Shown piece after piece: positions 30,576 to 47,472 of a stretch of 59,175 nt of DNA. The stretch covers positions 124,001 to 183,175 of the forward strand of contig NGBS01001173.1 in the NCBI GenBank assembly GCA_002245135.1, written 5' to 3'. Within the stretch, counting starts at the first letter, position 1. Each line of letters begins with the position of its first letter. Both the position numbers and the translations under genes were made by a program. Below the pieces are notes generated by a model, which saw only the letters and a list, made by a program, of their open reading frames with translations, searched no databases and was not told the DNA's origin. The DNA comes from Proteromonas lacertae (taxonomy: Eukaryota).

Positions 30576-30778
30576 AAAAATAACTAAATCACTTCATATA
30601 TTATTATTGTTTTGTTTGTTGTTTAATTAGGCTTTAGTGACATATTCTTCTGTTTTGAATGAATATGTTAAATCAAACAAAACTTCACTACTCATTCATA
30701 GAAACAGTGTGTAAAAACACACTATTACCAACATGTAACTCACTAATCATTTCAATATTTCATTCTATATATAGTATA

Positions 30779-30981
30779 TAAATGGGACCCTGGGACATTG
30801 TCACAGAGTCCTAACGAGTTTTCTAGGGGTCCGTCCCTTTCTAGATTCAGAGTTGACCTTTACGGGAGCTTCATCGATGCAATCGATGAAGCTCCCGTAA
30901 AGGTCAACTCTGAATCTAGAAGGGGACGGACTCCTAGAACACTCGTTAGAACTCTGTGACAATGTCCCAGGGTCCCATTTA
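30779..30981. repeat. Left terminal hairpin: 100-bp stem, GCA loop at 30879-30881
   Basis: Arms 30779-30878 and 30882-30981 are reverse complements with 4 mismatches. Confidence 0.95.
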
Positions 30982-30990
30982 CGTAAGGTT

Positions 30991-31096
30991 CCTACGGGAT
31001 TCCTCCCTACGGGGTCTACTACCTACGGAGTCTACTTCCCTACGGGGACTGCTGTAAGCTATTTCTATACCTATCTATGAGACGATCTCCTACGGG
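30991..31096 (+). repeat. CCTACGG(G) direct-repeat array next to the hairpin
   Basis: Copies at 30991, 31006, 31022, 31039 and 31089; mirrored as CCGTAGG in the right TIR. Confidence 0.8.
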
Positions 31097-31233
31097 TACT
31101 CCTGGAAGCTATCTAGAAGTGTTGGTTACCTCGAGGTGATGATTCTAATCACGCTCTTGACTCTCCTTGCTACGCTGGTGACCTTGTAAAGGCTTTTAAT
31201 TGAATCGTGGAAACCAACTGGGGAACCGGGAGT

Positions 31234-31301
31234 TTACAATTGTTAACTTGTTACCAATTGTTAACTAGTTACCAATTGGTAACAAGTTAACAATTGGTAA
31301 C
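31234..31301. repeat. Array of 16-bp palindromes GTTA(A/C)CAATTG(G/T)TAAC at 18-bp period (4 units)
   Basis: ttacaattgttaac-tt-gttaccaattgttaac-ta-gttaccaattggtaac-aa-gttaacaattggtaac. Confidence 0.9.
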
Positions 31302-31347
31302 TTCGATAGCCTTGAATAGTTGAAATCGTTTACCTAGTCAAGTATAG

Positions 31348-32420
31348 ATGGATCCAACCCAAGCAACATCTCCATTGAATGATAAAGCAGTCATAGAACA
31401 AGACACCTCCAGGGACTTCAATTTAGTTTCTCAACAATCCCAGGTAAACAACTACACACCACTGGTAGAAACATCCTCCGAAGGTAAGGTCAAGAGATCG
31501 CATAAGGAACTTCATAAGGCAGCTGAGGATCATCCAGCTAAGAAGTCACGGGTCAACAAAGTTTATTTCATCGAAGCATTGCTGGAGGTGCCAAGGAAGT
31601 GATTGATCCTAGCAGTATTATAAACGTACGTATTGCTATGTTCAGCTTTGCTTACTCCGCAATCGCAGCTCTTCATCATCATCAACTCAGTAAGAACGCA
31701 GTCAATGAGAATCCCGAGATGTACTCCAAGTACTTGAGCAAGTACATCATTAACTACCAACACCCTATAGCAAATCCAATATCATCTTCCAGACTCATCG
31801 ACTCCTTTGAAGAGAACAATAACGTGGGTGTTCACATCTATCAATTAAAGGGATCGCATTTACGATTAGCCAGACGCAGTAGCCGTACTTTACCGATGAC
31901 TTCTCCTGATCGTTTTGTTTACTTACTTTACATAGAAGCCGAGGAGGATGATCAAGTTCAATATCATTATACCGTGATTGCTAATCCAATGGACGTGATC
32001 GATGTTGATAATCCCGTGATTACTTCTGCTAGAGTCACCGACAAGAACATTTCCTGTGGTCTCTGTCCTTACTGCCTTAAGAAGTACCTAGGTTCCATTA
32101 ATGATCACATCCAACTCACCTGCTTAACTAAGGAGTCCAAGAAAAGTTATTGCAACTCCATGGGAACATCATCGTCTCTTAAGAAGAAGAAGGAGTCGGT
32201 ATACATTCAAGGTCATCTTGTAAAGTGCCTGAAGCTGATGAAAGAACTCAAGTACCAGGATGATGAACAGAAGCAAAGTATCCGATCGTTGAATCAGAGC
32301 TACTTGAAGATCATCAACAAGTTGGTTGTTGTCTATACTCCTGATGATAAGCAGTTGGAGGAGCTCTTATGCAAGACGGGTGATGTTATCAATAAGCTTA
32401 CAGCTCTTGATGATCCTTAA
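31348..32420 (+). CDS. Stand-alone remnant of the Polinton pPolB N-terminal OTU-like domain plus C2HC Zn finger; frameshift near 31593
   Basis: Adding one A joins the ORFs as LLEVPKEVIDPSSIINVRIAMFSFAYSAIAALH...FEENNNVGVHIY...VYLLYI...HYTVI...CPYCL...H...C. This matches the Polinton pattern LPKE...IINV.N.D..CF.WS.LAALH...FE..N.I.INVY...LL...HY..I...C..C. Confidence 0.6.
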
Positions 32421-32604
32421 AGTAATTACTTATCACTTGTCTTTACGGTGTTGTTTTGCTAGGAGGGTTCTTATCAATCAACAATAAGAGCTTTACCGAG
32501 GTCTTCATCAGCTGATATCAAAGCCCATCAAGGTAAAAGGAAAAGGTTTATCATCCCAAGACAAGACAGCTATCGTAAGTACATGAACTAAGCTCATAAG
32601 GCAA

Positions 32605-33372
32605 CTACTTATGGTTCACCATCTTCTTGAAGGTGGATGCCATTCTCGGGAGGTTTAACAAGGTTAAAGCATCATCACAGACTCGGAAGAAGTTCTTGGT
32701 ATCATTGTAAGGAACGTAGAATGCATTGTCCCATACCTCCATGGATTCCTTTGACAGGTTAAAGTCAGGATCCAAATGAAGTCTTATCTGGTTGTGGTCT
32801 GGATCCATCTCCATAATCATCTGGCCATCTAGACTAACTAGTATCACTGTACCATTATAAGAAGCAAGATCCTTTACTTGGATAGCGTCGTGTCCTCCAG
32901 TCTCATTACAAGAAGTCTTGATAAGCTTAACTTCATCCTTGGACTTTAAGGGTACCTTACGATCATCTCCTGGATGAACTCTAACATCTCGTTTATTCCC
33001 GGCCTTACGAGTAGCTACTAATGTCCTCGGTACTTTAATTGGACTCAACTTCCTTGGTTGTTGTTTACTTCCTCGGGCTGTGCTCTTCCTTGTAAGTCTC
33101 TTAGGAGTAGATGGTGGTGTACTTAAAGGTTCATCGTTAATGTAGTCTGGAGCAATGGTTGCTAATAAGCTTAAGTTATCCACAATGGCTTCAATGAGTT
33201 CTTCCCGGAGTGTTGCTTTACCTTGCTCCGTAATCATCGGCGATGACTTCCTTATGGTTCTACTACTAGCTCCTTGTTTCTTTACTCGGAGCTTCTTACC
33301 CTCCTTGGATGACTTATCAATGCTAGAGTTGGTTGATGATGATGATCTGCGTGATGACTTCCTGGGACTCAT
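32605..33372 (-). CDS. Viral hypothetical protein with a Ser/Arg/Lys-rich N-terminus
   Basis: 255-aa ORF with element-type codon usage. Confidence 0.7.
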   Translation of the reverse strand: MSPRKSSRRSSSSTNSSIDKSSKEGKKLRVKKQGASSRTIRKSSPMITEQGKATLREELIEAIVDNLSLLATIAPDYINDEPLSTPPSTPKRLTRKSTARGSKQQPRKLSPIKVPRTLVATRKAGNKRDVRVHPGDDRKVPLKSKDEVKLIKTSCNETGGHDAIQVKDLASYNGTVILVSLDGQMIMEMDPDHNQIRLHLDPDFNLSKESMEVWDNAFYVPYNDTKNFFRVCDDALTLLNLPRMASTFKKMVNHK

Positions 33373-33526
33373 AGACTTTGTCGGGATCGTATGGAAATTT
33401 GCATCTAGATGAATTCTCGGTCTTAAGCAATCGTGTATAAATGATTTTACTCATGTAAAATTGATCCCAATAAGATAGAAGGTGATGATAAAGCAAGTGA
33501 ATTATCAAGGGACGTTGTTAAGCTAG

Positions 33527-33880
33527 TTAGAGTCTTCGTCTCTTACCACCCTTGGACTTTGAAACAACGCGTTCCTCCAAGGTACCTTCAGCATCCATCA
33601 GATCAGCTTTTAGATCTCTTGCTAACCACTTGGCTTCTGCGTATAGACGATGAAGATCATCTAGGAGGATGAAGCTATCGGGACCTGATTCAGAATAGTT
33701 AATGTTGTTAGCTACCCTTTAATGGTAGTAGTTCTGGAGGTCACTTGCAAAGCCTGCAATCTGGATCCATGGAAGATTCAAGTGAATTGCTTTCAAGGAG
33801 TCATCGTCAGGTTCATTGTTAAAGGGATCATCGACCTCGTAGATCTCTTCATCACTCTCCTGGGTAAGTTTCTTAGGCAT
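33527..33880 (-). pseudogene. Viral hypothetical ~117-aa protein with a premature in-frame TAA at 33719-33721
   Basis: MPKKLTQESDEEIYEVDDPF...QNYYH*RVANNINYS...KSKGGKRRRL*, all in one frame; C-terminal NLS-like KRRR. Confidence 0.6.
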
Positions 33881-33933
33881 TGTAAGCACTTGGGTTATTT
33901 CAATAGGAAAAGTTGAACTACTCCCTTCATTGA

Positions 33934-35151
33934 ATGAATTCCTGGAAGAGCATGATTCCCATCAATAGCTCATCGATAAAGATGACAGTCCCTACCATGC
34001 AATCCTCGGAGAAGACATTACCTGAGATCTCCAAGGACTTAGCTATCGACTATCAACATTACCCAGTCCTTACTCCTCCAATCCATCGATGCACTCCTTT
34101 CGTTTGTGGGTGTCGAGATTCAACAAAGCTTCGGAGGTACGACTACCCATCTATATTCGAGTACCGAGATCTACACAAAGGTTATGCTTTACAATTCTTA
34201 TGGGACCTCAAGATCGAAGTAGAAGTATTTAACTCAAAGAAGTTCAACGAGAGTGTAAGTGATGGAATCTGCCTGGATGTTCCAGCAGGTTGTGATCGTC
34301 AGCACCCGTTCTATCTCTTGATGAAGGATAGTAGAAGTCAACTAGGTTCATTGAAAGCAAAGTTCTTTACTGAGACTGGAGAGCTCAAGACTTCAACAAC
34401 GACTTCATCCTCTGATGATCAAGTAAAGGTAACATCGTGGTACTTTGGAGTATCAGTGAATCCTAAGTACACTGATCGCTATAAGCTATGGCTCAACAAT
34501 CAAGGAGACGTCTATCGATCGGTTTATAAGCAATCGCTTACCTCAGACTATTGGAAGGATGGAGACATGATGATCATCTATCCCGAGAAAGTCTGGGAAC
34601 TCATCGATGAAGTAAGTGAGAATAAACAAAGGAATAAACACGTCCACGTGAATGTGAAGAAGGTGGATGAAAAAACAAGGAGCAAGATTCAAATGAAGTT
34701 GGATCAAGATTTAAAGGAGATAGAGAAGTCCCGGAGGAGTATTGAGGCACTCAATGAATCCTCCGAGGACTTGTTTATCAGTGGTAAGCAAAAGTACAGT
34801 AAGGTAATTTATCAAGGAGTGGAATACAACTCTATGGATGGAAGTGACTCTGACAATGACCAAGACTCTCATAGGAAAGGCAAGTATTGCACTATCGATC
34901 TGGATGCTACGATAATGATCTTTAAGTTTAACAAGGATGGGAGCATGAGTGAAAGAACACTAAGTCCCGAGGAGATCTTTAACCGAGAAGCTCATCGTCT
35001 TACTTCTGATCAACGAGAAGAACTCAAGAGATGTCGTCAGCTCACATTCAGGGTCAAGAGAAAGTACGTAAAGCATCAGGCTGTAGATTCATCGGATCGA
35101 AGAAGTCATCATCATCTTCATCATCGACACACTCAGAGGAAGAGCTCATAG
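33934..35151 (+). CDS. Viral hypothetical protein (405 aa)
   Basis: Long ORF; no motif recognised. Confidence 0.75.
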   Translation: MNSWKSMIPINSSSIKMTVPTMQSSEKTLPEISKDLAIDYQHYPVLTPPIHRCTPFVCGCRDSTKLRRYDYPSIFEYRDLHKGYALQFLWDLKIEVEVFNSKKFNESVSDGICLDVPAGCDRQHPFYLLMKDSRSQLGSLKAKFFTETGELKTSTTTSSSDDQVKVTSWYFGVSVNPKYTDRYKLWLNNQGDVYRSVYKQSLTSDYWKDGDMMIIYPEKVWELIDEVSENKQRNKHVHVNVKKVDEKTRSKIQMKLDQDLKEIEKSRRSIEALNESSEDLFISGKQKYSKVIYQGVEYNSMDGSDSDNDQDSHRKGKYCTIDLDATIMIFKFNKDGSMSERTLSPEEIFNREAHRLTSDQREELKRCRQLTFRVKRKYVKHQAVDSSDRRSHHHLHHRHTQRKSS

Positions 35152-35191
35152 CCGATAAGCTATTATTAAATTTCTTGCCTACTCCAGAAAC

Positions 35192-36376
35192 ATGATCTCA
35201 ATTCATCAACCCGATAAGAGACTCTTACCAATCTACCCGAGAGTGTGTATTCATAAGGCCGATCGTGGAATCCAAGAAGGTAATGAATGGACTCTTCTAG
35301 TCAAGGAAGTTCAAGAGAAGTTATCGGAGTGTGAACAATTAGCTCTGGACACGCACTTTATCATGATCGACAATGCTAACAAAGGAATCACTGAGAGTGA
35401 CTTGGAAGTTCACAGCTCAGTAAGGATGTTACTCAAGGTAGTTCATCAGTCAGTGATCAAAGCTAAGGAAGTGTTAAGGACTTGCCTTCATCGTATCACC
35501 GACTGTGAGTTGAAGGATCATGAGATCGTAGAGAAGAGCATTTACCAGAGCCGGGCATGTCTATTCCTATACTCCATGGAAGGAATGATATCAGCAGAGT
35601 ACACGATGGGAAAGTGTAAGTCCGAGATCTACTATTCAGTCTATAAGAAAGCTGCTAACTTAAGACTTAAGTTCCATTGCTTGATGATTAATGCGGTCTC
35701 GTGGATGACAACCTACCTGGACCCTTACAATCTCTTTGGTAAGCACTGTGAGTACATCAATACTATCAAGAACGGAGCCTGCCAGATCAACACTTACTTT
35801 AATGCTGTGGAGGAGAACTACTTTGCTGATCGAGAGTTAACAAGAAGCCTCTTGAGAGATGTTAACATCTCCGACAATGAGGTCGATCACTTGCTAGAGC
35901 AGTTCTATACTATGAAGGAGAAGTGCGATAGACTAGATAGCAAAGTCATTGCTGAACTGTACTACTATGAGGATGATATCGTTAAGCTTCAAGAGAAGTT
36001 TAAGGAGATCGTCCAGATAATGGAGGAGTGTCTACTCCATACTTACAGCTGGTTGATGATGTTCAAGAAGGAGACACCACAAGAAGTTCCTCAAGTGAAG
36101 GACAAGGACAAGGACCAGGAAGAAGTTACTAAAGCAATCACTTACGCAAGTGTCTTAAGTAATAGTAAGAGTCGTCGTAAAGCAAAGAAACGAGATACTA
36201 TTGTTACCTCCGAGGCAACAGTAGTATCCTCAAAGAAGAGATGGTACTATCAAGAGTCAAGGATCGATTACATCTTACACCTTCAAGGAGCTCTTATTGA
36301 GACTAGGAAGTTCATCTCCCAGCTGATCATCGACTCCGAGGAGCACCTTCTCAACTGGTGGGAACAAGATCATTGA
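35192..36376 (+). CDS. Viral hypothetical alpha-helical protein (394 aa)
   Basis: Long ORF with helical/coiled-coil character and a basic patch SRRKAKKR. Confidence 0.75.
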   Translation: MISIHQPDKRLLPIYPRVCIHKADRGIQEGNEWTLLVKEVQEKLSECEQLALDTHFIMIDNANKGITESDLEVHSSVRMLLKVVHQSVIKAKEVLRTCLHRITDCELKDHEIVEKSIYQSRACLFLYSMEGMISAEYTMGKCKSEIYYSVYKKAANLRLKFHCLMINAVSWMTTYLDPYNLFGKHCEYINTIKNGACQINTYFNAVEENYFADRELTRSLLRDVNISDNEVDHLLEQFYTMKEKCDRLDSKVIAELYYYEDDIVKLQEKFKEIVQIMEECLLHTYSWLMMFKKETPQEVPQVKDKDKDQEEVTKAITYASVLSNSKSRRKAKKRDTIVTSEATVVSSKKRWYYQESRIDYILHLQGALIETRKFISQLIIDSEEHLLNWWEQDH

Positions 36377-36463
36377 AGCTTTACTTAAACAGTATTTTTG
36401 ATTATGAAACTAGTGCTTAGGGATTCCCAGAAACAACAACGAGAGTAAGCAAAGTAAAGGGAA

Positions 36464-37861
36464 TTAGAATAAGCTTAAGAAGGAGTTAGCAATCGTTTGA
36501 ATCTTAGCAATGGACTGCTTGAGATCATCAACTTGATCGTGGAACTTCTTAAGGCTCTTGAAAGAGTCCCAGTCTAATGGTACGTAGAGATTGTCCTGGA
36601 GTTGTAAGACTGGGTGCTTGAGAATGGATATCAGCTCATCATACATCTTGGAGTAGTCACGGCAAAGGGTTCTGAAGTTAGCTCTAGTCATCATACCTAT
36701 GTGATTGCTTATGACGTTCTCAAAGTCGGTGACATGCTGGATAATAAAGTCAGTAAGGGCTTCCACCTCCTTATCAAGATCGTTGAGTTTCCATAGCTGA
36801 GTGATTACCTTATCCTTGTAATGGTCAAAGTGTGGATGCTCTTGAAGTAAGCTCTCTCGGAACTGATGGTAGTAGCTGAGAAAGGAAGTAGCATCGCATC
36901 GTAGATCAAGGCTATACTGTTGGAAGTCTCGGAGATAACTCATAAAGACCGTGAACTGCTCAGGAGTATCGGATGTGGTCTTCGTGGCCTGAAGGAATTC
37001 AATCAAGGCATTAACTTTACTCTGGAGCTTTCGGACGATGTTCTTGTAGGCAGTCAGTTCATAGAGAGAATCAGTCTTGGCGTTATGCTTCATAAAGAGA
37101 ACATAGTCTAGCAGATTTACGGCATGTTGATAGATACTACTTTGTCTAGAACACCACTCAGTAAAGTATCTTGGATCCTTGGAGGACATCTTCCATTCAC
37201 TATTGATCAGGGAAAGTAATTTACTGTCATTGACCTGTCCAAGTAAGATTATAAAAGTATCCGTTTCATGAGATGGAGTATCACAGATCTCTTGGTAGCG
37301 AAGCATGGACTTGGTTAAGCAATCGTGGATGATCTGGTAAAGTCTCTTGACTTCCTGACAGTAGTTCATAGGAGTCCAGTACTTGGGTATCTCCTCAGAT
37401 CCCTCCTCGGAGGATTCCTCGGAGCTCTCTTCGGAGCTCTCTTCGGAAGAGGAGTATAACTCTTCAGAAGGCTCCTTTGAAGGCTCCTTTGTAGGTTCCT
37501 TTGTAGGTTCCTTTGAAAGTTCCTTTAAAGGTTCCTTTAAAGGTTCTTCAACCGGTTCAGTGACAGGATCTCTCTGATTCAGAAGCTCCTTTTGAAACTC
37601 AATATCATCATCAATCTCTGTCTCTACATCGGACAGATCCCTTGAAGTATCACAGCATGGTTCTGTACTGTCACTATCACTGTCATTACAGATAGCCTCG
37701 GTCTTTACCTATAAACAATAAAGCAATGAAGCAAGTACCTTCTTCTTATCAGGCTGACAGTCATCAGTCTTCAAGGAAGCTTCCATACACATGGTGATCT
37801 TATTAACAGCTCCTTGACCACAACTATTACAAAACTCACAGGTACGAGATCTTTTTGACAT
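36464..37861 (-). CDS. Viral ~455-aa protein with a 30-nt intron (37709-37738): Cys-rich N-terminus, KEP(S/T/L) and EESS repeats, helical C-terminus
   Basis: Exon 1 MSKRSRTCEFCNSCGQ...PDKKK; intron GTACTTGCTTCATTGCTTTATTGTTTATAG ends in an in-frame TAG; exon 2 VKTEAIC...KYWTP runs in frame into ORF 36464-37369. Confidence 0.75.
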
Positions 37862-38094
37862 GGTAAATTACGTAATTGACAAAGTATTAGAAGTGCAAGA
37901 AAATTGAAACTAAGAGAAGTGTCGATTCATAAGCATTAATTGTAAAATGCCAAATGCAATACATAGTACCAGTGTATTGGGTATTAGTCAAAATAGAATT
38001 GAATTTAGTCGTTACAAGATAGTCATAATAGAATTGCAAATTAGTGGTTTCAATATATGAAGGTATATATACATGATTGAAGGTTCAATTCATA

Positions 38095-38176
38095 GGGGGG
38101 CGTAGCCCGAATGGTCAGAGGAATGCCGTAGGAAGTTCTAGCCCAGCCGGGTAGCCCAGCCGGGTTCAAATCTTGC
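38095..38176 (+). ncRNA. tRNA-derived Pol III-like cassette (A box and B box, upstream TATA)
   Basis: GGGGGGCG-TAGCCCGAATGG (A box) ... GGGTTCAAATCTTGC (B box/T arm). TATATATA lies ~30 nt upstream at 38064. Internal 13-bp duplication TAGCCCAGCCGGG x2. No 3' acceptor strand. Confidence 0.55.
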
Positions 38177-38203
38177 AAAGGAAATAAAAGATAATAAAAG
38201 TAC

Positions 38204-38319
38204 CCTAGAAAACTCGTTAGAACTCTGTGACAATGTCCCATAGTCCCATTTACGTAAGGTTCCTACGGGATTCCTCCTAACGGGGTCTATTGACTACGGT
38301 GCCTATTTCCCTACGGGAC
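38204..38319 (+). repeat. Internal partial copy of the left TIR (distal half of the inner hairpin arm plus CCTACGG array)
   Basis: Aligns to 30933-31049 in the same orientation. Confidence 0.92.
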
Positions 38320-38377
38320 GATCACTTACAGGATGATCTTCAAGGGAAGTACTTGATAAATTCCTTAAGCAAAAGCC

Positions 38378-39196
38378 ATGGTCAAGAAAGTAAGAGCGTT
38401 CTCAAGAGCAACTAAAACCAAGATCATTCCCAAGGACATCCAACGATCCCTTGTAACTCAAGTAGCTGATGTACTCAACATTCCGGCAGCTCCAGTCGTA
38501 CTTCTCCGAGATGCTGAACTAGCAAGGAGATCAACTAAGACTCCCAGGTCAACATCTTCACGTCCAGACAAAGCAATCATCGATCTGGCTAATAAGTATA
38601 AGGAGGTGATGAGCTTACCAAAGGAAGCTTCCGAGGAGACCAGAAGTATTCTACGTCAACTATCACGGGATGTTGCTAACATCGCTGAGAAGGACAACCC
38701 ATCCTTTCAATTGATCCGAGAGCATGCTGCTAAAGCCGGTGTTGAGATTCCTGACTTCAAAAGGAGTTCCAAATCTGATGGTAAGTCAACTCCATCAATT
38801 CTTCATCGGGCAGTGGATTATATAAAGGGAAAGCTTCCAGCTGGAGAGACTGTCAAGGATATAATGAGGAGTCCACAAGTATGGGCCGCAGTAGTTAACT
38901 ATCTTGGACGAGGTAAAGGTGATTCCAAAGAGGAGGAAGAGGATGATGTTGGTTACTATGCTAGACTATATAATCAATACCGTAAGGTGACTTCCAAGAG
39001 CCGTGAACGCGAGTCCTCCTCCTCCGATGATGATGATGATGAGATTCCAATCCTTGAGGTTGATCCAGACTATGTGTCGGAGGACGATGCTGACGATGTT
39101 GAAGCTGATGATGAGTTCCCCTTTAATCATTCTCACGGTAAGATCAAGATGGTAAAGCCTTCTCCTTCTGAGTGGTACAAGTGCTTACAGTTGTAA
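38378..39196 (+). CDS. Viral hypothetical protein with basic N-terminus and acidic C-terminus
   Basis: 272-aa ORF. Confidence 0.7.
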   Translation: MVKKVRAFSRATKTKIIPKDIQRSLVTQVADVLNIPAAPVVLLRDAELARRSTKTPRSTSSRPDKAIIDLANKYKEVMSLPKEASEETRSILRQLSRDVANIAEKDNPSFQLIREHAAKAGVEIPDFKRSSKSDGKSTPSILHRAVDYIKGKLPAGETVKDIMRSPQVWAAVVNYLGRGKGDSKEEEEDDVGYYARLYNQYRKVTSKSRERESSSSDDDDDEIPILEVDPDYVSEDDADDVEADDEFPFNHSHGKIKMVKPSPSEWYKCLQL

Positions 39197-39231
39197 TCCT
39201 TAACTTCTTCGGTCTATCTATCTCTCCTAGT

Positions 39232-39759
39232 ATGTTTGGGACTTTTAAGCAACAGCACCTCCATCAACAAGAACTCTTTGAAGCCTTATCAGCGATCCGT
39301 GATCACTTCAAGAGAAGTCCTGGCAATCAGCATGTCATTGATAATCACTACCTCCGAGACTTTAAGAAGAGAAGATATCTCCGACACTCCATCACGAACT
39401 ACAACAGTGCTGATCAAGGAGATGTCTACGATTCCATGAATAACCTAGTTAATGAGATCAAGGAACTGCTCCAAGAGAATCCACCGTCAGTACGTGCAAT
39501 TGACATCCCCGAGTATGATGAACTGATGAAACGATCCTCCGATGATGACTTAACCTACTTGCTACGGGATCAACTGATAAGGCTCCTTGTCTTGTGTGGT
39601 GGATCTAACTCCTCAGGCATCTTCAAGATGAATAAGCTAAAGCAACGCCACCTAAGGAACATACAATGTTTAATTAAGATAATCAAGGTAAGGAAGTTCT
39701 ACGTGTCGAAGGAGTTACAGTCTCTTTATAAAGTAGTTCTTCGATCTCTAGCTTACTAA
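39232..39759 (+). CDS. Viral hypothetical helical protein (possibly exon 2 of the 38378 gene)
   Basis: ORF 39172-39759, first ATG at 39232. A candidate 38-nt GT-AG intron at 39193-39230 would join the two frames. Confidence 0.6.
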   Translation: MFGTFKQQHLHQQELFEALSAIRDHFKRSPGNQHVIDNHYLRDFKKRRYLRHSITNYNSADQGDVYDSMNNLVNEIKELLQENPPSVRAIDIPEYDELMKRSSDDDLTYLLRDQLIRLLVLCGGSNSSGIFKMNKLKQRHLRNIQCLIKIIKVRKFYVSKELQSLYKVVLRSLAY

Positions 39760-39813
39760 CATTCTACTAAGTATTGTTATCTTAAGTTCATCGTTGTTGA
39801 TGGGGTTAATCAT

Positions 39814-40752
39814 CTAGTCCACAAAGAGTTGCTTATCGAAGTTGATCCTATACTGAGCCTTGTGCATATCAATGTATAGGAAGCTATAAGGAGTATGCTC
39901 CGTGGCCGTATGATAGAACTCCTTGAAGAGTCTAAAGGGAGTTGCCAAGGCAAGGGACTTATGAAGTAATTGAAGGTGGCTGCATGATATGTTTTTGAAG
40001 GCTAAGCAATAGTCCAGCTGAAGTCTTTGACCAGGAGTAAGGTCTGTAATGTACTGACTACTGATAATCACCTTTGCCTTGTAATGCCTGTTCTGCTTAA
40101 GGAAGGTGATTAGCTGGGGATCTTTCAGGTCATTGCTAACATCATCGAATACAAAGATGTTCTCAGCGCAGGTGCTATTCTCTTTATCTGGAGGTGGTAG
40201 ATCGTGAAGTACTTCCTCCAGGTTGTTGGTCTTGTCTTCCTCGTTCACGATTGAGTCAAAGGTGTAGTAGTCGATCTTGTTGTACTCCAACATCTCCATG
40301 ATCTTATCGTAGAGCACATCCTTATGGATCGTACCAACAAATAAGTAGATCCTTTGATTCTTACCCTTGATTAGTATATGTTGAAGGACATTGTAGATGA
40401 CTGTTGTCTTACCAGAGTTCTTCTTTGCTAGGAGGAAGATGTTACAGAAGGGTTCATCGAAGTAGTCATAGCCGACAACATCCTTCCCGTGACTGGAGGT
40501 CTTGATTTTCAAAGGCTTTACTTCTGCCTGGTTGATCTTCTCATACTCTATCTTTAAATGGCCCTTGGATGATCTCGGTAACTTCTCTGGTAAGTAAGCA
40601 TCACCATGTACTTCATCATCATCTCCATCATCATCCTTAAAGCGATCATCTCCTGATCCTTTCAGTCTTTGCATCTTACTGAGATGAAGATCTCCAAAGG
40701 GTTGCTTTCTCTTGTTAACCATAAGCATCATAAGAACTAAGTATACGATCAA
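39814..40752 (-). CDS. A32/FtsK-HerA family genome-packaging ATPase
   Basis: Walker A variant AKKNSGKTT, Walker B IFVFDD, QNRHYK (Arg-finger RH), IISSQY, C-terminal PYSFLYID...YRINFD. Confidence 0.9.
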   Translation of the reverse strand: MIVYLVLMMLMVNKRKQPFGDLHLSKMQRLKGSGDDRFKDDDGDDDEVHGDAYLPEKLPRSSKGHLKIEYEKINQAEVKPLKIKTSSHGKDVVGYDYFDEPFCNIFLLAKKNSGKTTVIYNVLQHILIKGKNQRIYLFVGTIHKDVLYDKIMEMLEYNKIDYYTFDSIVNEEDKTNNLEEVLHDLPPPDKENSTCAENIFVFDDVSNDLKDPQLITFLKQNRHYKAKVIISSQYITDLTPGQRLQLDYCLAFKNISCSHLQLLHKSLALATPFRLFKEFYHTATEHTPYSFLYIDMHKAQYRINFDKQLFVD

Positions 40753-40776
40753 GAACTTATCGATAAGGAACTTTAC

Positions 40777-42129
40777 TTATGCTATACAACGAATGCCCGA
40801 GGTGGTAATCTCAGCTCTTCGTCCAGTGATCAAGTAGAATCGGTGATTCACAGACTTGTGATCTAGCTCTGAGTTGTAGATCTCAAAGGTGATCTTTAAA
40901 TCTCCGTCTAGTCTTCTCCCAGCAATGGTCTTAACATTACCAAGGTTGTCACTACCGAAGTTGAGTACCTCAAAGAACTTCTCGGTAAAGGGCTTCTTGT
41001 TGAGTTGATCATACCAGCTTCCTCCAATGTACTTCTTAAGCAACTCGTAGCTATCGTAAGTCTCCATGTTCTGATAGTTGGGATTGTAGTTGAAGTCGTT
41101 GATCATCCACTTGAATCTTGCTTTGGAGTCTAAGGGAAGGACACGGTTCTTCATTGTATATGCCTGATAGACGATGGCTTTAATATAAGGACCAATAGAG
41201 CTGTTGATTGTAAAGGAGTAGTTGAAGTAATCGCCGGTGCTGGTGATGGTGATGCTCTTGTCATGATAGTCACTAAAGGGAATGGGCTTCTCAATACAGG
41301 AGACGATAGATTTCTTGTTGCTGTTGAAGTCCTTGTTGTATAAGGCTCTGATGCAAATGTCCTTGATCTCACACTTTGCCTGAAGAGTAACATCCTCCTT
41401 GCTATATTCATACTTATCATCGTCGGTATCGAACTTCGCATCAGTAGCTGTACTCAATCTTCCGAAGTTGGTGATCTCTCCCCATCGGATGCTGAGAAGT
41501 AACTTCTCTCCGAAGAATAGATCAGTGGGATTTGCTAGGACAGTGTTATACATCTCATTGAAAGGAATCTTTACAAGGACTTCCAAGTAGCCGTCTTTCA
41601 CTTGAGTATCCCAGAAGGTGTTGTTTACCTTGGAGGTGCATCCATCATTTCCATTATCTACCGAGGTGAACTCCATACCAGGCTGGAGGATATCTCCGTT
41701 CTTCTTTTGCCAGATACCATCGAAATAAGTGTGTTGTCTATTGACGTGAGTTGTCTTCCTTTGAACTTGTTGCATAAGCCCTCTGTATTGTTCATAAGTG
41801 TCAGTTACATAAAGCAAGTTGATTCCAGCAGCATTGTGTACTCTCAAGGAGGAGATATTGAAGGTGTTGTATAGGAGGATCTTCTCAGCCTTCTTGTTAT
41901 TGTCAGAATCCTTATATCCGATGATTAGACGATACTCTAAGTAACTCTTGCTAAGGTTAATGCAATTGTCGGTAGCTATCTCGAACATGACCTCTGCGGT
42001 TGATCCAGAAGTACCAGCATTGACCGAGGTGTTGCTCTGGGTAGGGTTGACTTTCACGGGTACGTAAAGTGAATCATAACTCTCGGAGTAAGCTCCTTGT
42101 TGAACACTTGCTGGGATGAATGTTGTCAT
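40777..42129 (-). CDS. Putative double-jelly-roll major capsid protein
   Basis: 450 aa, beta-strand-rich. N-terminal 'EVMFEI...INLSKSYLEYRLII' and 'IPFNEMYNTVL...DLFFG..LLLSIRW' resemble Polinton-like-virus MCPs. Lies between the ATPase and the protease. Confidence 0.7.
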   Translation of the reverse strand: MTTFIPASVQQGAYSESYDSLYVPVKVNPTQSNTSVNAGTSGSTAEVMFEIATDNCINLSKSYLEYRLIIGYKDSDNNKKAEKILLYNTFNISSLRVHNAAGINLLYVTDTYEQYRGLMQQVQRKTTHVNRQHTYFDGIWQKKNGDILQPGMEFTSVDNGNDGCTSKVNNTFWDTQVKDGYLEVLVKIPFNEMYNTVLANPTDLFFGEKLLLSIRWGEITNFGRLSTATDAKFDTDDDKYEYSKEDVTLQAKCEIKDICIRALYNKDFNSNKKSIVSCIEKPIPFSDYHDKSITITSTGDYFNYSFTINSSIGPYIKAIVYQAYTMKNRVLPLDSKARFKWMINDFNYNPNYQNMETYDSYELLKKYIGGSWYDQLNKKPFTEKFFEVLNFGSDNLGNVKTIAGRRLDGDLKITFEIYNSELDHKSVNHRFYLITGRRAEITTSGIRCIA

Positions 42130-42216
42130 TGCCTTTGGGTAATCTCCTAAGTAAAATTGAACTAGGAAAAGACTTATTACTTAGATTAAGTTAAAGGTTC
42201 TCTTGAGCAGTGCCAT

Positions 42217-43020
42217 TTACTTCTCGCCCTGGATAGAGTTGAAGTTAGTTGCCTCCTTGAAGGACAGGTTCCTTCCGAGGATATTGAATAGGAAGTAGAT
42301 TGCAAAGTAACCACAAGTGTCGGTGTTGACCTTCTGGTTCTTGATTCGATTGATCTTGAGTTGGTACTTATCCTCGGGATTACCTTTATGGTGTTGTAGT
42401 TGCTGGATGAACCACGAGTAGTTCTTAGGGTTCTCTCCGAAGCTATCATAGTAGTAGATTTGCCTTCGATTATCATCCACGACTAAGGCAACCCAATGCC
42501 CGATCGCATTCTCAGCACTTGTAGTTGTAAGGGTATTGAGAATGCATCCCCATCTATTTGTTCCTAAGACTCGAAGGTCTTGCTTAAGTTGATCCCATAA
42601 GAAGACTCCAGCGAATTGTCCATTGAAGTCACTGTACTCTTCCTTGATCAGCCTCTCGATATCGAAGTTGCTTAAGGCATCATCATGGCTAGCAACTTTA
42701 CCTTCAGCAAAGTACTCATACTTATCCTCATGCTCCTTATCAACATCATCATCGATGATATCCGAGAGTGGCATCTCCAACATCGAGTTGATTTTCAGCT
42801 GTCTAAATAAAGGGTCTGTATCTGCATACACTACAGGTTGTCGTTCTTGCTCTTGTCTACTAGGTAATAGGATTGGACTTTGAACTGCTGGCTGGGCAAT
42901 TGGTATTGAAGGAACGTAGGAGTTCACCTGGTCCTCCATTATCGAATAGCTGCCTCCTTGAACTTTACCTAGACCTTTGAAGCCATTGAAGAGATTACCA
43001 GATGATTCCTCCCATACCAT
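42217..43020 (-). CDS. Adenain/Ulp1-like (clan CE) virion maturation cysteine protease
   Basis: Catalytic motifs GHWVAL, YYYDSFG, NQ...DTCGYF. Confidence 0.92.
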   Translation of the reverse strand: MVWEESSGNLFNGFKGLGKVQGGSYSIMEDQVNSYVPSIPIAQPAVQSPILLPSRQEQERQPVVYADTDPLFRQLKINSMLEMPLSDIIDDDVDKEHEDKYEYFAEGKVASHDDALSNFDIERLIKEEYSDFNGQFAGVFLWDQLKQDLRVLGTNRWGCILNTLTTTSAENAIGHWVALVVDDNRRQIYYYDSFGENPKNYSWFIQQLQHHKGNPEDKYQLKINRIKNQKVNTDTCGYFAIYFLFNILGRNLSFKEATNFNSIQGEK

Positions 43021-44072
43021 TACCTAGTCCTCCTCCTCACATTGAGTTGATTGATCGCGTTAACCATTGCATTGTTAAGTGTTGTATCGGGACCTTTGTA
43101 CTGAGTCTCTAGCCATCGGAAGAAGTCATCGTTAGGAGTGTTGTTGTAATTGTCATTGAGTTTATCAACAGCCTTATCAATCAACTGAACTACTGGGTGG
43201 TTCTCATCATAGCCAGCGGCCTTAGCAAAAGACTTAAACTGTTCCTTGTTGCCTTGAACGAACTTAAGAAACTCTCCAGCTAGTGTCTGATGATCTGTTT
43301 GAAACAACCTTCCTATACCCGGGATGGAACGTAGGAGACTTCCTACGATAGGGATCTGTCCTATTCTACTTCCGAAGGTTGAGATTAATCCAACCATTCC
43401 AAGGATGGCTCCGATGGCACCTCCTATCTTCATTCCACGGTCTGTTATTCCTGACTGATTCTGGGTAAGTGAGTTACTAGTATTCCCAAAGGTGTTGATC
43501 ATCCTGGAGACATCTTGTTGTTGCTTCAATAAGGAGTAAATATCATTATTACTAGTTGTGTTATCATATAAGGGAAGAGTTCCACGGCTAATTGTTGTCC
43601 TTGAGTTGTTGACATTGTAAGGGGTCATGATGGAGCTCTGATAGTCCACATACTTTTGGTAATCATCAGCAAAGTAAGTTGCTGAAGGATGCACATTGAG
43701 CTTCTTACGTTCCTCCTCGGCAAGCAGCTTTCTAAGGTCAGGGTTTTTCACGAGGAAATGATCGTTGTAGGTCTTGCTAGCAAGGTACTTCTCCTGGAGT
43801 TCACCGCTCTCCTCGATGTTGTTCTCCAAGGGATTGCTCTTAACGATTGATAAGGAATTACCTTCTCCGTCTTGAGTATCATCAGTGTTGTTGTTAGGAG
43901 CTATCTCTGATAGCAAGGTAGTTAAGTAGTGTAAGTCATCAGTGTTGTTTATCTTGACCTGGAACTCCTTCTTAAGCTTCTGCTGTAGTGCCTTCACAAC
44001 TCTTGAAGTAAGCTTCTTCTTCCTTGAGTTGATTCCTTTGTCTTTATCGTTTACCATCGATATCTTTACCAT
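43020..44072 (-). CDS. Viral hypothetical virion protein with a Gly-rich hydrophobic/amphipathic segment
   Basis: 350 aa; GMKIGGAIGAILGMVGLISTFGSRIGQIPIVGSLLRSIPGIGRLF. Its stop overlaps the protease start (TAATG). Confidence 0.7.
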   Translation of the reverse strand: MVKISMVNDKDKGINSRKKKLTSRVVKALQQKLKKEFQVKINNTDDLHYLTTLLSEIAPNNNTDDTQDGEGNSLSIVKSNPLENNIEESGELQEKYLASKTYNDHFLVKNPDLRKLLAEEERKKLNVHPSATYFADDYQKYVDYQSSIMTPYNVNNSRTTISRGTLPLYDNTTSNNDIYSLLKQQQDVSRMINTFGNTSNSLTQNQSGITDRGMKIGGAIGAILGMVGLISTFGSRIGQIPIVGSLLRSIPGIGRLFQTDHQTLAGEFLKFVQGNKEQFKSFAKAAGYDENHPVVQLIDKAVDKLNDNYNNTPNDDFFRWLETQYKGPDTTLNNAMVNAINQLNVRRRTR

Positions 44073-44393
44073 GGACGATTGACTATTGGAAAAGAACTTC
44101 TATTGCTTATCAGTCCTCCTCGGGATTGTCAGGATAGTTATACCAAGGCTTTACAACCACCGAGGACTTCAAAGCTTCTGATTGTTGATGAAGTTTATTT
44201 AGAGTCGATAGATTGAACCTCCGGGATCTATCTTGTACTGCTTAAGTTGATTGTCCATCTCCTGAGTCTTTATCTCCCGGTGTTTTCTCTTAGACTTCCT
44301 TCTAGGATAGTTGTCAGGAGGATCTTCAAGGCACTTGTTCTTTCGATCGTAAGTTGTTTCTTCAATCTCCATTGAATGGAACTTGGAATTGAC

Positions 44394-44828
44394 TCAATAC
44401 TGAAGGTTATTGTTCTTTAGGAACTGCTCTATCTTCTTTTGATTCTCAAGAGCCTTCTTCTTACTAATACGTTTCTTTCTTGCTTGTTGTGTATTGCTCT
44501 TCTCGGGAGTGTTCATCAACTTGGCCTTTAAGTTCTTCAACCCATCGGAGATAAGCTTCTTGATGTTACTGAGTACTAGTTCCATAGAGTAAGTTCTTGG
44601 AAGGGCATTGGAGATATCGTCCAGTTCATAGTCGTCAATAGCAACGATGTCAGGGATGGGAATGGGTATTGCTGGGCCTTTAGATGTTCTTCTTCTTCTT
44701 CTAGTCTTTATCAGCCTAGGTATATCAGTCTTGTTAAGTTGCCTTACAATGATCTTCTCTTTGCGTTTGTCTTTAAGCTTCTTGAGTATCTCAGGATGCT
44801 GCTTAAGCATTGCTTTGGTTCTAGCCAT
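44394..44828 (-). CDS. Basic putative core/DNA-binding protein starting MARTK
   Basis: 144 aa, very Lys/Arg-rich (KTRRRRRTSK, ARKKRISKKK). Confidence 0.7.
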   Translation of the reverse strand: MARTKAMLKQHPEILKKLKDKRKEKIIVRQLNKTDIPRLIKTRRRRRTSKGPAIPIPIPDIVAIDDYELDDISNALPRTYSMELVLSNIKKLISDGLKNLKAKLMNTPEKSNTQQARKKRISKKKALENQKKIEQFLKNNNLQY

Positions 44829-44896
44829 TGTAATTGCCTTTAAGAAAATGCCTTATATCATCTTCTAGTATTTACTTTCCCGAGTGATTCTTACGA

Positions 44897-45528
44897 TGGA
44901 ATATCTCTTGTCCGATAACATCAGTAGCCGATCCTTGTTGATCTCCAACCTCACTTGTCTAGTCGATAGTTACCAAGAGTGTACTGGAGCTTCATGGAAC
45001 TTTACTTCCTTTGACTTTGTCACCATCCTTTCATCCGTACTACAAAACATCACTGTGAAGACTGATGGAAGCAGCAACAATAGTATGATCGATATGATTA
45101 TCAACTATGGGATGACCGTCTTGTTAGCAATTGTCCTTACAGGTGTTGGCTATATCCTTAAGAAGCTAGGAGTGATCAATAACATGTCCGACATCACTGA
45201 GATCAAGAACATGGTATTAACTCAACGAAGGCAAAGTACTGTCTTTGAGAGTGACTTAGAGGATATCAAGAAGACTTTACTGGGTAATTCTGCAAGAAGT
45301 AGTGGTAACTCTCCTAGCAATGGAGCTCCGATGATGTTGCTAGGCTCTTCAACTTCAACCATTGACAGTACTACTTCTCCTATCATTCCAGAGACAATCC
45401 CTAAGGGATCTGATGTTGAGTCCCTTGAAGTAAGCATTAGTGATAATGAGTCCGGCAAAGTACTTCCCAAGAAGATTGATATCTCCGATGGAAACTTACT
45501 TGACCCCAGCAATAGCATTGAATTCTAA
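44897..45528 (+). CDS. Viral single-pass membrane protein with a Ser-rich tail
   Basis: ORF 44884-45528; TM segment IINYGMTVLLAIVLTGVGYILKK. Confidence 0.65.
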
Positions 45529-45544
45529 CTTAAGTCCTTTAACT

Positions 45545-46661
45545 TTATCGTATATTGTATCTCTTGATGAGCTTGCGGTTCCTTGTTATACCAGCATCTT
45601 CATTTACCTTGAGGAGTTCATTTGACTTATAGCACTTATCGGAGATGTCCTTGACCGGAATTCATGTTAGCATCTCCGAGGATGAAGGAGTAGGTGTTCT
45701 TTGCGATGATCCGATAGATGACGTCAGAGTAGAATAAGGCCTTCTCTATCTTGCTTACTCGACGTTCCTTAACTCTTACGAAGTCCCCAATATTGAACTG
45801 TTCCATGGCAGTGTTCCTTTGGTTACACATCTCGGCGTGATTGTAGAAGTACTGCTGGACATCTTCGTCGTAGAAGACTTCATTGGGAGTGAACCAGGAT
45901 AAGGATGCCTTCGGTTTATTGTTGTACTGATCAACGACTTCATCGATAAGTAGATTGAATTGTCTTACGTTCAGAGCTCCTCGAGAGTGGAAGTCAACAT
46001 CAGCTATTCTCTTGTAAAGCAATCTCTTGACCTCAGAGACTGAATGATCAAGGATGCTCATTACATGATGCTCATCTACGTCCTTAACGATGTACTGGAT
46101 CTGGTGTTGTATAAGCTCCTCTTGAAACAAGTTGCATAAGAAGGCTCCTTCCTTGTCTGTTAAGATCGTTGATACATTGCGGCTATGCTCATCCCTTAAA
46201 GGTTCCTTCTCATGTCCTTGATAGAAGAACCGTTGCCATGCCTCCATCACTGAGTTATAAGTCTTATCAGGCATCCAGTAACAGAATACCTTCCTGCTAG
46301 GTACGTGAACTAGATAAAGCCATCCGTACTTGTGACTATTCTTTGGTAAGAAGAAGACTATGTCCATTTGATAGCTGTCAGGAACTGGAATGATCTTTAA
46401 GGGCTTTATCCTGGTGTTGATGTAGACTACCTGATTGCCCGGTTGTCTGTAGTAGAACTCCTTTACGTATTCTACTGGGATTGATTTATCGTAGTGATGT
46501 ACTTGCCTTATGAACTGATTAAGAGATAGGAATGGTAAGGTGTTGTAAGTCCTTTGAAGTAGATCCTCAGGAGATGAGAAGGTCGGAGGTTGATAGAACG
46601 TAGACTTCACGTATGGCTTTATAGGGATCTCCTTACTTGTGTTATTGATGGTTGCTTCCAT
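45545..46661 (-). CDS. Retroviral-type (rve) integrase of the Polinton class; frameshift near 45661 in the C-terminal domain
   Basis: YQMDIVF (D), ILTDKEGAF (D), SILDHSVSEVK (third acidic residue), YNNKPKASLSWFTPNEV, FNIGDFVRV. The shifted frame continues IPVKDISDKCYKSNELLKV...NIR* to 45545. Confidence 0.9.
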
Positions 46662-46756
46662 GGGATCATTGACAATCAGGTTACCTTCTTCTTCTTCAGG
46701 CTGTTGTAGTTGTGGATCTTCAAGGGTTGATTCATCATTGGGAAAGACTTTACTAC

Positions 46757-47230
46757 TTAGAGACGATAGACAATGACTTTGTTGGTGCTTCTACGGGTAC
46801 TTGATTTACCACCTTTACTTCTCTCGGCCTTATGAAGTTTTACTTTACCTAGTCCATTGGTTTTGAGAACATCACTTATCATCGGTCCAGCTACAGGAAT
46901 GTACTTGCTTACCGTGGATAGCACCTTGCTTTTCTTAAAGAAGTTACCTATGTCCTGGAAGAATCCCTTGCCTTTGACTTTTGACTTCTTCGATTGTTGG
47001 TTCTCAAGGAAGCTGCTATAAAGGGTTGGAGTATAATAACAATAAGCAGGAGCCGGGTTGTACTTTCTCTTGGTTGCTTTATCGGAGCTAGCAAAGGGTA
47101 ATGGCTCCAATGGATCCTCGTAATAACATTGATCGGTAAGATCATCCACGGAGGTGAATCTGGATCTACTATCAAGACTATCCTCGTTGGAGTATTGATG
47201 AGTGTTGGGATTGTAGGTATGGATAGGCAT
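46757..47230 (-). CDS. Putative membrane-lytic virion protein (adenovirus pVI/cupiennin-like)
   Basis: Adenain-type site VKGK|G is followed by the amphipathic helix GFFQDIGNFFKKSKVLSTVSKYIPVAGPMISDVLK and a basic tail. Confidence 0.6.
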   Translation of the reverse strand: MPIHTYNPNTHQYSNEDSLDSRSRFTSVDDLTDQCYYEDPLEPLPFASSDKATKRKYNPAPAYCYYTPTLYSSFLENQQSKKSKVKGKGFFQDIGNFFKKSKVLSTVSKYIPVAGPMISDVLKTNGLGKVKLHKAERSKGGKSSTRRSTNKVIVYRL

Positions 47231-47472
47231 CTTACTTTGACCTTGGAATTAACAAACTGGAATGCCATTCTTGGGAGCTTCCTAAACGTAGAAACCCCGT
47301 AGTTTCTACGGTCTATCAGTCTCATTTTTCCCGGACAATTGTTGAGCATTGGAACACTTTACCTAGGTGAATTATAAGGTCATTGTAACTTACCTCTAGG
47401 AAGCTCCCGAGAATGCTTATCATTATCTTCAAGTGCCCTTGAGAAATCCACAACTAGCTAGAACCTCCCGGA

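What the first reader, a model, noticed from the sequence alone, without database searches (positions are those of the whole stretch)
38064..38176. tRNA-derived Pol III-like cassette inside the virus (possible VA-RNA analogue)
Seen: a GC-rich island in an AT-rich intergenic gap with a tRNA-like 5' end, A box (TAGCCCGAATGG), B box (GGTTCAAATC), TATA at about -30, a 13-bp internal duplication and no acceptor-stem partner. The first T4 on this strand is at 39243-39246, just past the stop of ORF 38378-39196. Known: adenovirus VA RNAs and EBERs are Pol III RNAs with A/B boxes, and tRNA genes can act as chromatin insulators. Inference: a viral ncRNA, a Pol III promoter for a ~1.15-kb transcript covering the TIR remnant and ORF 38378, an insulator, or a captured tRNA/SINE piece from an earlier integration site.
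Basis: partly seen in the sequence, partly recalled or inferred. Interest (0 to 1): 0.72.

Follow-up and report, generated by a model that had tools for sequence, protein, structure and literature searches.

The report
tRNA-derived promoter remnant in protist virus
A small virus integrated in the genome of what is likely a single-celled eukaryote carries an 80-base stretch with the promoter signals of a tRNA gene but without the tRNA shape; it is likely a rearranged tRNA remnant fused to pieces of the virus's own end repeat, and whether it still drives a small viral RNA is untested.

Summary
The island is real. It lies in the divergent intergenic gap of a 17.3-kb polinton-like virus (capsid, A32-type ATPase, protease, rve integrase, palindromic TIRs). 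A tRNA-like head plus a B box at tRNA/Alu spacing arose in 25 of 3,077 local shuffles, and a TATA sits about 28 nt upstream of the likely start. It is not a tRNA: no ARAGORN or Rfam hit, no acceptor stem, no own T-run, and no folding beyond shuffles. The anticodon-arm position holds an inverted 16/17 copy of a TIR motif. The duplicated 13-mers are the better A boxes. A second perfect B box lies at 38082. The cassette abuts a truncated, 90%-identical internal TIR copy in a zone full of small duplications. Best reading (0.45): a tRNA-derived Pol III promoter left at a rearrangement junction, at most a TFIIIC site or leaky promoter. Main rival (0.22): a ~217-nt fold-back VA-like RNA ending at a weak TATTT. 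The 1.15-kb transcript idea has no support. One distant relative (L074) carries two terminator-bearing tRNA-like units. No close relative or RNA data could be reached, so conservation and expression are untested.

The parts
30774..48030 (.). Integrated polinton-like virus, 17.3 kb, GC about 42% in a host of about 27%; TATATA on both sides (6-bp target duplication if the ends are G...C; the TA context leaves the ends uncertain by 2 nt)
30774..31301 (+). Left TIR (about 540 bp) with a terminal palindrome of about 100-bp arms and five CCTACGG repeats
47491..48030 (-). Right TIR; segments 94-97% complementary to the left TIR
37863..38377 (.). Divergent intergenic gap (515 nt) between a leftward gene starting near 37862 and ORF 38378
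37985..38057 (+). 35-bp tandem duplication in the AT-rich part
38064..38071 (+). TATA element, 28 nt upstream of the inferred start at 38092; expected in about 5% of shuffles of this AT-rich flank
   Evidence: 1,072 of 20,000
38082..38091 (+).
38096..38120 (+). tRNA-like head (acceptor 5' strand, A box A1 at 38103-38114 with a mismatch at the invariant A, D-loop GG)
38118..38134 (-). Inverted 16/17 copy of a TIR motif, in place of the anticodon arm; its first three bases overlap the end of the tRNA-like head
   Evidence: 0 of 2,000 shuffles; 0 of 361 other windows
38139..38164 (+). 13-bp tandem duplication; each copy is a full match to the A-box consensus (A2, A3) but too close to B2
38163..38172 (+). 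B box (B2), best B-box score in the element; imperfect T-stem around it
38177..38200 (+). A-rich spacer (17 A of 24, two AATAAA) where the acceptor 3' strand and a terminator would be
38203..38317 (+). Truncated internal copy of the TIR, 90% identical over 114 nt, with 8 changes found in no terminal copy; a looser match continues to about 38345
38304..38308 (+). TATTT, first T-rich 5-mer after the cassette, a possible weak Pol III terminator; both TIRs have C at its third position
38378..39196 (+). ORF of 272 aa, no homologue found among proteins of 149-476 aa and no usable atlas hit
39814..40731 (-). Packaging ATPase (64 homologues, best 56%, many with PF04665; the name Pox A32 for it is recalled)
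40777..42129 (-). Double jelly-roll major capsid protein (low-confidence model, pLDDT 48; top folds Sputnik, iridovirus, mavirus)
42217..43020 (-). Maturation-type cysteine protease (C48/C5/C57 hits)
45636..46661 (-). rve integrase (E 2.8e-5, below the Pfam cut-off)

Best explanation
The island is likely the remnant of a tRNA or tRNA-like gene whose two Pol III promoter blocks and upstream TATA survive inside a polinton-like virus, while its tRNA body was likely broken up by copying errors next to an internal piece of the virus's end repeat. Shown: the boxes, their spacing, the missing acceptor stem and terminator, the inverted TIR motif in the anticodon position, the duplications and the truncated TIR copy. 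Inferred: a template switch at a shared 3-base overlap put TIR sequence behind the D arm; slippage doubled 13 bp and widened the A-B gap from 37 to 50 nt; the 3' end and terminator were lost at the junction with the TIR fragment. Host TFIIIC would still bind B2 and probably A1, and any Pol III transcript from about 38092 would run into the TIR copy. Such transcription would be leaky read-through, not a selected RNA. It cannot give a chargeable tRNA.
For: Head plus B box in 25 of 3,077 local shuffles, and with TATA 0 of 3,077. Best hit of the 59-kb window to a sequence-only tRNA profile, E about 0.03, though in the register of the duplicated 13-mer. A-B gap of 50 nt equals the Alu value, and 37 nt with one repeat unit not counted is close to the tRNA value of 35 (PMC4333407 passages). 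tRNA genes are known PLV cargo: 558 Rfam tRNA hits in 8,300 PLV/virophage genomes (PMC12220804), and relative L074 has two tRNA-like units. Signs of a rearrangement scar: 35-bp and 13-bp duplications, inverted TIR 17-mer, truncated TIR copy with 8 private changes. No fold beyond shuffles for any of 16 candidate transcripts (z 0.33 to -1.6). A1 breaks the invariant A. The first T4 is 1,071 nt past the B box.
Against: Exactly the promoter blocks survive while all stems are lost, which is also what selection on a promoter would leave; the counter is that only such remnants get noticed. A compact virus has kept about 250 nt here. A second B box within 100 nt on one strand arose in 0 of 1,000 shuffles and is not explained by decay. 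tRNA ancestry is itself only moderate: no hit by ARAGORN, Rfam at E up to 10, a structural tRNA model with filters off or nhmmer, and 0 of 13 and 0 of 9 exact matches elsewhere are tRNAs.
Confidence: 0.45

Rival explanations
1. A selected viral Pol III RNA of about 217 nt (38092-38308), VA-like in logic: the tRNA-derived promoter drives an RNA whose inverted TIR motif pairs with the internal TIR copy, ending at a weak TATTT. It would act as a double-stranded decoy, a source of TIR-directed small RNAs, or a sink for the protein that binds the TIR repeats.
For: TATA at -28, A box at +12 and B box at +72 resemble the Alu layout (A +13, B +77). The helix between 38119-38133 and 38261-38275 has pair probabilities of 0.92-0.99. 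TATTT exists only in the internal copy and gave 42% termination in human cells (PMC8466645 passage). L074 shows terminator-bearing non-canonical tRNA-like units in a relative. Multiple A boxes occur in gammaherpesvirus TMER promoters.
Against: Whole-RNA fold z is -1.03, with 36 of 200 shuffles as good. Pairing outside the 17-mer is no better than shuffles (468 of 2,000) and barely better than with the terminal TIRs. The 17-mer helix follows from any inverted copy. The terminator is non-canonical, measured in a distant organism, and one of only 8 private changes.
Confidence: 0.22
2. Chance boxes in a GC-rich patch made of TIR-derived and locally duplicated sequence; no tRNA ancestry and no Pol III role.
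For: The middle is TIR-derived. The ordered A+B score alone is reached in 6-10% of element shuffles. The A consensus occurs 23 times and the short B consensus 9 times in the element, with no strict pair. No tRNA finder hits it. The tests were designed after seeing the island.
Against: The head and the 3' part do not align to the TIR better than shuffles (61-165 of 300). Joint tests give 0.8% or less. Among 81 related loci only L074 passes the same joint filter.
Confidence: 0.13
3. A selected DNA element: two B boxes recruit TFIIIC without making an RNA and form a boundary or open-chromatin site between the left gene block and the capsid block.
For: The only two long B-box matches of the element lie 81 nt apart in the divergent gap. 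No terminator is needed for this role. TFIIIC sites act in insulation and occur without tRNA genes in yeast, fly and mammals (PMC4226948 passages).
Against: No chromatin data. B1 lies inside a short palindrome and could be a by-product of local copying. The TATA and A1 geometry is not needed for this role.
Confidence: 0.1
4. A Pol III promoter for a ~1.15-kb transcript through the TIR remnant and ORF 38378.
For: The first T4 is at 39243, just past the ORF stop.
Against: 6 of 25 T4-free stretches on this strand are at least 1,087 nt. That T4 lies inside ORF 39232. Weaker T-rich sites come first (38304, 38799, 39205, 39233). Pol III RNAs are uncapped and poorly translated (recalled).
Confidence: 0.05
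5. A host tRNA-derived SINE inserted into the virus (head with A/B boxes plus A-rich tail with AATAAA).
For: Head followed by an A-rich tract with two AATAAA, the layout of some mammalian SINEs.
Against: The only flanking direct repeat is a 7-mer, about what AT-rich flanks give by chance (my estimate). No second copy in the 59-kb window. The middle comes from the virus's own TIR.
Confidence: 0.05

Closest known systems
tRNA genes carried by PLVs, virophages and MELD viruses (PMC12220804 section 16; PMC8502044 Fig. 6 legend)
   Same: tRNA-type A/B boxes in an intergenic part of a TIR-bounded, integrase-bearing PLV
   Different: Those pass Rfam or ARAGORN. This one has no cloverleaf, no acceptor stem and no terminator, and contains TIR sequence, so such scans miss it.
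Adenovirus VA RNA, EBV EBERs, gammaherpesvirus 68 TMERs (type-2 Pol III viral RNAs; PMC8223928 passages)
   Same: Internal A and B boxes in a small DNA virus; an upstream TATA-like element as in EBERs; several A boxes as in TMERs
   Different: No T4 terminator nearby, no fold beyond shuffles, no Rfam match, no expression or conservation shown; the extra A boxes lie between A1 and B
tRNA-derived SINE heads and the Alu promoter (PMC4333407, PMC8466645 passages)
   Same: A-B gap of 50 nt, no own terminator, A-rich tract after the B box
   Different: Single copy in the window, no credible target duplication, no pure poly(A), middle derived from the viral TIR
Extra-TFIIIC sites and tDNA insulators (PMC4226948 passages)
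   Same: B boxes without an intact tRNA gene, between transcription units
   Different: No binding or barrier data; here inside a virus
Palindrome-ended virophages and PLVs of Halocafeteria (bioRxiv 10.64898/2026.07.28.741278 passages)
   Same: Terminal palindromes inside TIRs next to the target duplication, rve integrase, no pPolB recognised
   Different: Concerns the carrier element only; the word tRNA does not occur in that text

Membership tests
tRNA gene | Cloverleaf with acceptor stem, anticodon arm and discriminator | tested here: not met
   ARAGORN 0; no RF00005 at E up to 10; absent from the 10 matches of a structural model with filters off
tRNA gene | T-run terminator just downstream | tested here: not met
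   A-rich tract follows; first T4 at 39243
Type-2 Pol III promoter | B box GWTCRAnnC | tested here: met
   Full matches at 38164 and 38083 (consensus)
Type-2 Pol III promoter | A box TRGYnnAnnnG about 35-53 nt upstream of the B box | tested here: inconclusive
   A1 has the right spacing but one mismatch at the invariant A; A2 and A3 match fully but are too close
Type-2 Pol III promoter | TFIIIC binding and B-box-dependent transcription | not testable with these tools
   Needs extract or ChIP data
VA RNA / EBER-like viral RNA | Short unit closed by a T4 or longer run | tested here: not met
   Only a non-canonical TATTT at 38304 before the T4 at 39243
VA RNA / EBER-like viral RNA | Stable fold beyond composition | tested here: inconclusive
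   z 0.33 to -1.6 for 16 candidate transcripts; one well-supported helix from the inverted 17-mer
VA RNA / EBER-like viral RNA | Match to a curated family | tested here: not met
VA RNA / EBER-like viral RNA | Abundant expression and conservation among sister viruses | not testable with these tools
   No close relative with DNA was reached; no read data could be laid
tRNA-derived SINE | Many dispersed copies in the host | not testable with these tools
   No genome held; one copy in the window
tRNA-derived SINE | Target-site duplication around head and tail | tested here: not met
   Longest shared word 7 nt
Polinton-like virus (carrier) | Double jelly-roll capsid, packaging ATPase, protease, TIRs | tested here: met
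   (capsid from a low-confidence model); minor capsid protein not identified
Polinton in the strict sense (carrier) | Protein-primed DNA polymerase B | tested here: not met
   No Pfam hit in 16 element ORFs, no PHROG hit in 12; longest ORF 450 aa

The most novel reading that the evidence does not exclude
Polinton-like viruses make their own non-tRNA Pol III RNAs from recycled tRNA promoters. This element has built one by joining a tRNA head and B box to its own terminal-repeat sequence, giving a ~217-nt fold-back RNA that mimics or targets the TIR. The terminator-bearing tRNA-like units of L074 would be an independent case, and standard tRNA scans miss the degenerate ones.
Probability: 0.2. 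Interest if true: 0.75.

Novelty: new variant of a known kind. Interest (0 to 1): 0.42.

Why it matters
VA RNAs and EBERs show that DNA viruses turn tRNA-type promoters into counter-defence RNAs. A full-text search for 'VA RNA' with 'polinton' found 0 papers; 'virophage', 'tRNA-like' and 'polinton' gave 2 listings, neither on this topic by title and abstract start. PLV surveys count only hits that pass tRNA finders and read them as codon aids. If cassettes like this one are transcribed, protist PLVs, which are grouped with adenoviruses as MELD viruses, have an overlooked class of small RNA, and an RNA carrying TIR sequence would be a new way to regulate silencing or replication. If it is a remnant, it records how such promoters are recycled, and matters little otherwise.

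Tried and rejected
Close relatives: none reached. ORF 38378 and the capsid found nothing in viral contigs. Exact island patterns found nothing in viral and metagenome contigs. The ATPase alignment gave 1 viral locus and 161 metagenome loci, of which 80 were kept, all at 29-38% identity; no island or TIR similarity in them. The closest proteins (50-56%) have no DNA available. Sequencing runs: none was listed, and no RNA holder was listed, so no reads were laid. tRNA source: blastn found nothing in phages and 5 weak plasmid hits; 0 of 13 prokaryote matches to the head 18-mer and 0 of 9 viral matches to the repeat 16-mer are tRNAs. Idea that the whole island is an inverted TIR copy: extension beyond the 17-mer is not better than shuffles; rejected. 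Idea that the private changes of the internal TIR copy are compensatory with the head: 6 of 8 cluster at 38290-38306, but only two create pairs and the duplex gain is 1.3-2.8 kcal/mol and not significant; not accepted. A 25/30 match of the A-rich tract to host 9889-9918 is low-complexity, coding-like sequence; rejected. Isotype assignment: not possible, because the anticodon position is TIR-derived. Host identity: not established; the atlas gave only bacterial look-alikes for a host binding domain. Earlier findings by sequence and by place: nothing.

Full report
Context. The finding lies inside a 17.3-kb insert (about 30774-48030) of 42% GC in a host of about 27% GC. The insert has TIRs of about 540-555 bp with terminal palindromes, and TATATA on both sides. 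It encodes a packaging ATPase (64 homologues, best 56%), a double jelly-roll capsid protein (4 close homologues; model pLDDT 48 with Sputnik, iridovirus and mavirus capsids as top folds), a cysteine protease and a weak rve integrase hit. No DNA polymerase was recognised in 16 ORFs by Pfam or 12 by PHROGs. It is a polinton-like virus. Palindrome-ended elements without pPolB are described in a 2026 preprint (10.64898/2026.07.28.741278, passages). The host is likely a protist. A 30-nt intron candidate in the virus recalls Blastocystis (PMC12129017, passages), but the host was not identified and no genome is held.

Observation. The island is the most GC-rich 75-nt window of the element and sits in the 515-nt gap between divergent gene blocks. 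I built box weights from 33 tRNA rows: 30 loci of one bacterial genome plus one unit of L074. No eukaryotic set was available. The pair A1 (38103) and B2 (38163) scores 19.4 bits, best in the element (next 12.2) but below the training tRNAs (22.6-32.1). It is reached in 29 of 300 global and 19 of 300 local shuffles, and in 32 of 1,000 shuffles of intergenic DNA only. Best A plus best B in any order within 100 nt is reached in 8 and 10 of 400 shuffles. The 25-nt head matches a real tRNA 5' end at 18 of 25 positions without gaps; 2 of 11,492 sampled windows of the element score as well. Head plus B box at tRNA spacing arose in 25 of 3,077 local shuffles; a looser head plus B box in 195, and with a TATA in 0. 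A sequence-only model ranks the island first in the 59-kb window (E about 0.03), but through the duplicated 13-mer rather than the head. These tests were designed after seeing the island, so I put tRNA ancestry near 0.8, not at 0.99.

Results against. ARAGORN, Rfam at E up to 10 on a 201-nt stretch, nhmmer and a structural tRNA model with filters off all miss it. By the published consensus (TRGYnnAnnnG and GWTCRAnnC; PMC4333407, passages), A1 fails at the invariant A, and no strict A-B pair exists in the element. Exact matches to parts of the island elsewhere are not tRNAs: 0 of 13 and 0 of 9. The island folds like its shuffles (z 0.15).

(1) Bases 38118-38134, where an anticodon arm would be, are an inverted 16/17 copy of a motif in both TIRs and in the internal TIR copy; 0 of 2,000 shuffles and 0 of 361 other windows match the TIR as well. 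The match does not extend into the head, so the island is a chimera. (2) The two 13-mers are full A-box matches but lie 14 nt or less from B2. (3) A second perfect B box lies at 38082; two on one strand within 100 nt arose in 0 of 1,000 shuffles. (4) After a 24-nt A-rich spacer comes a truncated TIR copy, 90% identical over 114 nt with 8 private changes. One change creates TATTT at 38304, a sequence that gave 42% Pol III termination in human cells (PMC8466645, passages). (5) The T4-free run to 39243 is ordinary: 6 of 25 such runs on this strand are at least 1,087 nt.

Relatives. No close relative with DNA was found. The ATPase alignment gave 81 distant loci (1 viral, plus the best 80 of 161 metagenomic; 412,195 bases; 13 loci of 10 kb or more). 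Only L074 holds tRNA-like units (it was part of the training). Rfam finds them independently at 30.4 and 23.8 bits, with intact D and T arms, mismatched acceptor stems and T-run terminators. tRNA genes are known PLV cargo: 558 Rfam hits in 8,300 genomes, and none within 1 kb of cryptophyte insertion sites (PMC12220804, section 16 and passages). MELD virus maps also flag tRNAs (PMC8502044, section 10). A virus-borne origin is thus at least as likely as capture at an old insertion site, though the flank upstream is host-like in GC (29%). Five AI notes from other genomes describe Pol III-like units in Polintons, mostly near the ends; I did not test them and count them as leads only.

Mechanism. 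Shown: a TATA, a tRNA-like head, a B box, no acceptor stem, no terminator, TIR sequence in the middle and downstream, and two tandem duplications. Inferred: a tRNA or L074-type unit near an element end was cut up by template switching and slippage, which left the promoter blocks. By analogy with Alu (start 12 nt before the A box), Pol III would start near 38092, 28 nt after the TATA. A TATA is optional in plant tRNA genes (22-32%; PMC11700998, passages). Any transcript would fold the 17-mer onto 38260-38276 (pair probabilities 0.92-0.99 over most of the helix) and end partly at 38308 or run on. No candidate transcript folds better than its shuffles (z 0.33 to -1.6 for 16 end pairs; -1.03 for the 217-mer). 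The opposite strand of 38096-38312 reaches z -2.9, but I found no promoter for it. I therefore favour a remnant with at most leaky activity (0.45) over a selected 217-nt RNA (0.22), chance (0.13), a TFIIIC boundary (0.10; PMC4226948, passages), the 1.15-kb transcript (0.05) and a SINE (0.05).

Comparison and novelty. It works, if at all, like a type-2 Pol III promoter of the Alu or VA kind (PMC8223928, passages). It fails membership as a tRNA gene and lacks the terminator and fold that define VA RNAs and EBERs. Searches for a printed precedent: 'VA RNA' with 'polinton' 0 papers; 'virophage', 'tRNA-like' and 'polinton' 2 listings, off topic by title and abstract start; none of the 20 listed of 45 papers contains 'polinton'; one search gave 5 listings, of which I read one. 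Most subscription journals are not searched, and I did not open the supplementary ncRNA tables of PMC12220804. One further preprint (10.1101/2024.03.23.586382, passages) had no bearing. Verdict: a real but degenerate tRNA-derived cassette, a new variant of a known kind, interest 0.42; function is open until sister copies or RNA data are examined.

Noticed in passing
L074 14532-14603, 14343-14415 and about 14113-14136 (all minus strand): A distant integrase-bearing PLV carries two tRNA-like units (Rfam tRNA 30.4 and 23.8 bits) with intact D and T arms, mismatched acceptor and anticodon stems and T-run terminators, plus a third lone D-arm-like piece, all within 760 nt of the contig end. A cleaner candidate for a PLV Pol III RNA than the present finding.
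   Followed up: partly
window 30779-30981 and 47821-48025: Both ends carry imperfect palindromes with arms of about 100 bp, and no pPolB is recognised; this fits hairpin-primed replication as proposed for Halocafeteria elements.
   Followed up: partly
window 38203-48030: The stretch from the internal TIR copy to the right TIR is 9.8 kb and holds all recognised virion and integrase genes; the longest contigs of several close homologues are 9-10 kb. The internal copy may be the old left end of a smaller element that gained a 7.4-kb block of unknown genes; both blocks have 42% GC.
   Followed up: partly
window 37709-37738 (minus): Candidate in-frame 30-nt GT-AG intron covering the only stop between an ATG near 37862 and ORF 36464-37369. 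Introns of exactly 30 nt are typical of human Blastocystis subtypes. It would imply nuclear, spliced expression.
   Followed up: partly
window 33373-33933 (minus): Coding-looking frame of about 115 codons interrupted by one in-frame stop: a broken gene or an unrecognised intron.
   Followed up: no
window 33457, 37900, 42153: The same octamer occurs three times in the element, each 24-85 nt upstream of a minus-strand gene; a possible promoter motif. Its identity with a giant-virus early promoter on the other strand is recalled, not tested.
   Followed up: no
window 47296-47311 and both TIRs: The TIR repeat core also occurs as an inverted pair upstream of ORF 46757-47230, so it may be a protein-binding or promoter motif.
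   Followed up: no
window 31232-31305 and 47469-47562: An array of 8-18-nt palindromic AT-rich units at the inner edge of both TIRs; it causes the spurious miRNA hits in Rfam.
   Followed up: no
window 575-7816 and 21399-30575: Very large host receptor-like ORFs; the two adjoining shorter ORFs that were scanned hit periplasmic-binding-protein domains, one also 7tm_3.
   Followed up: no
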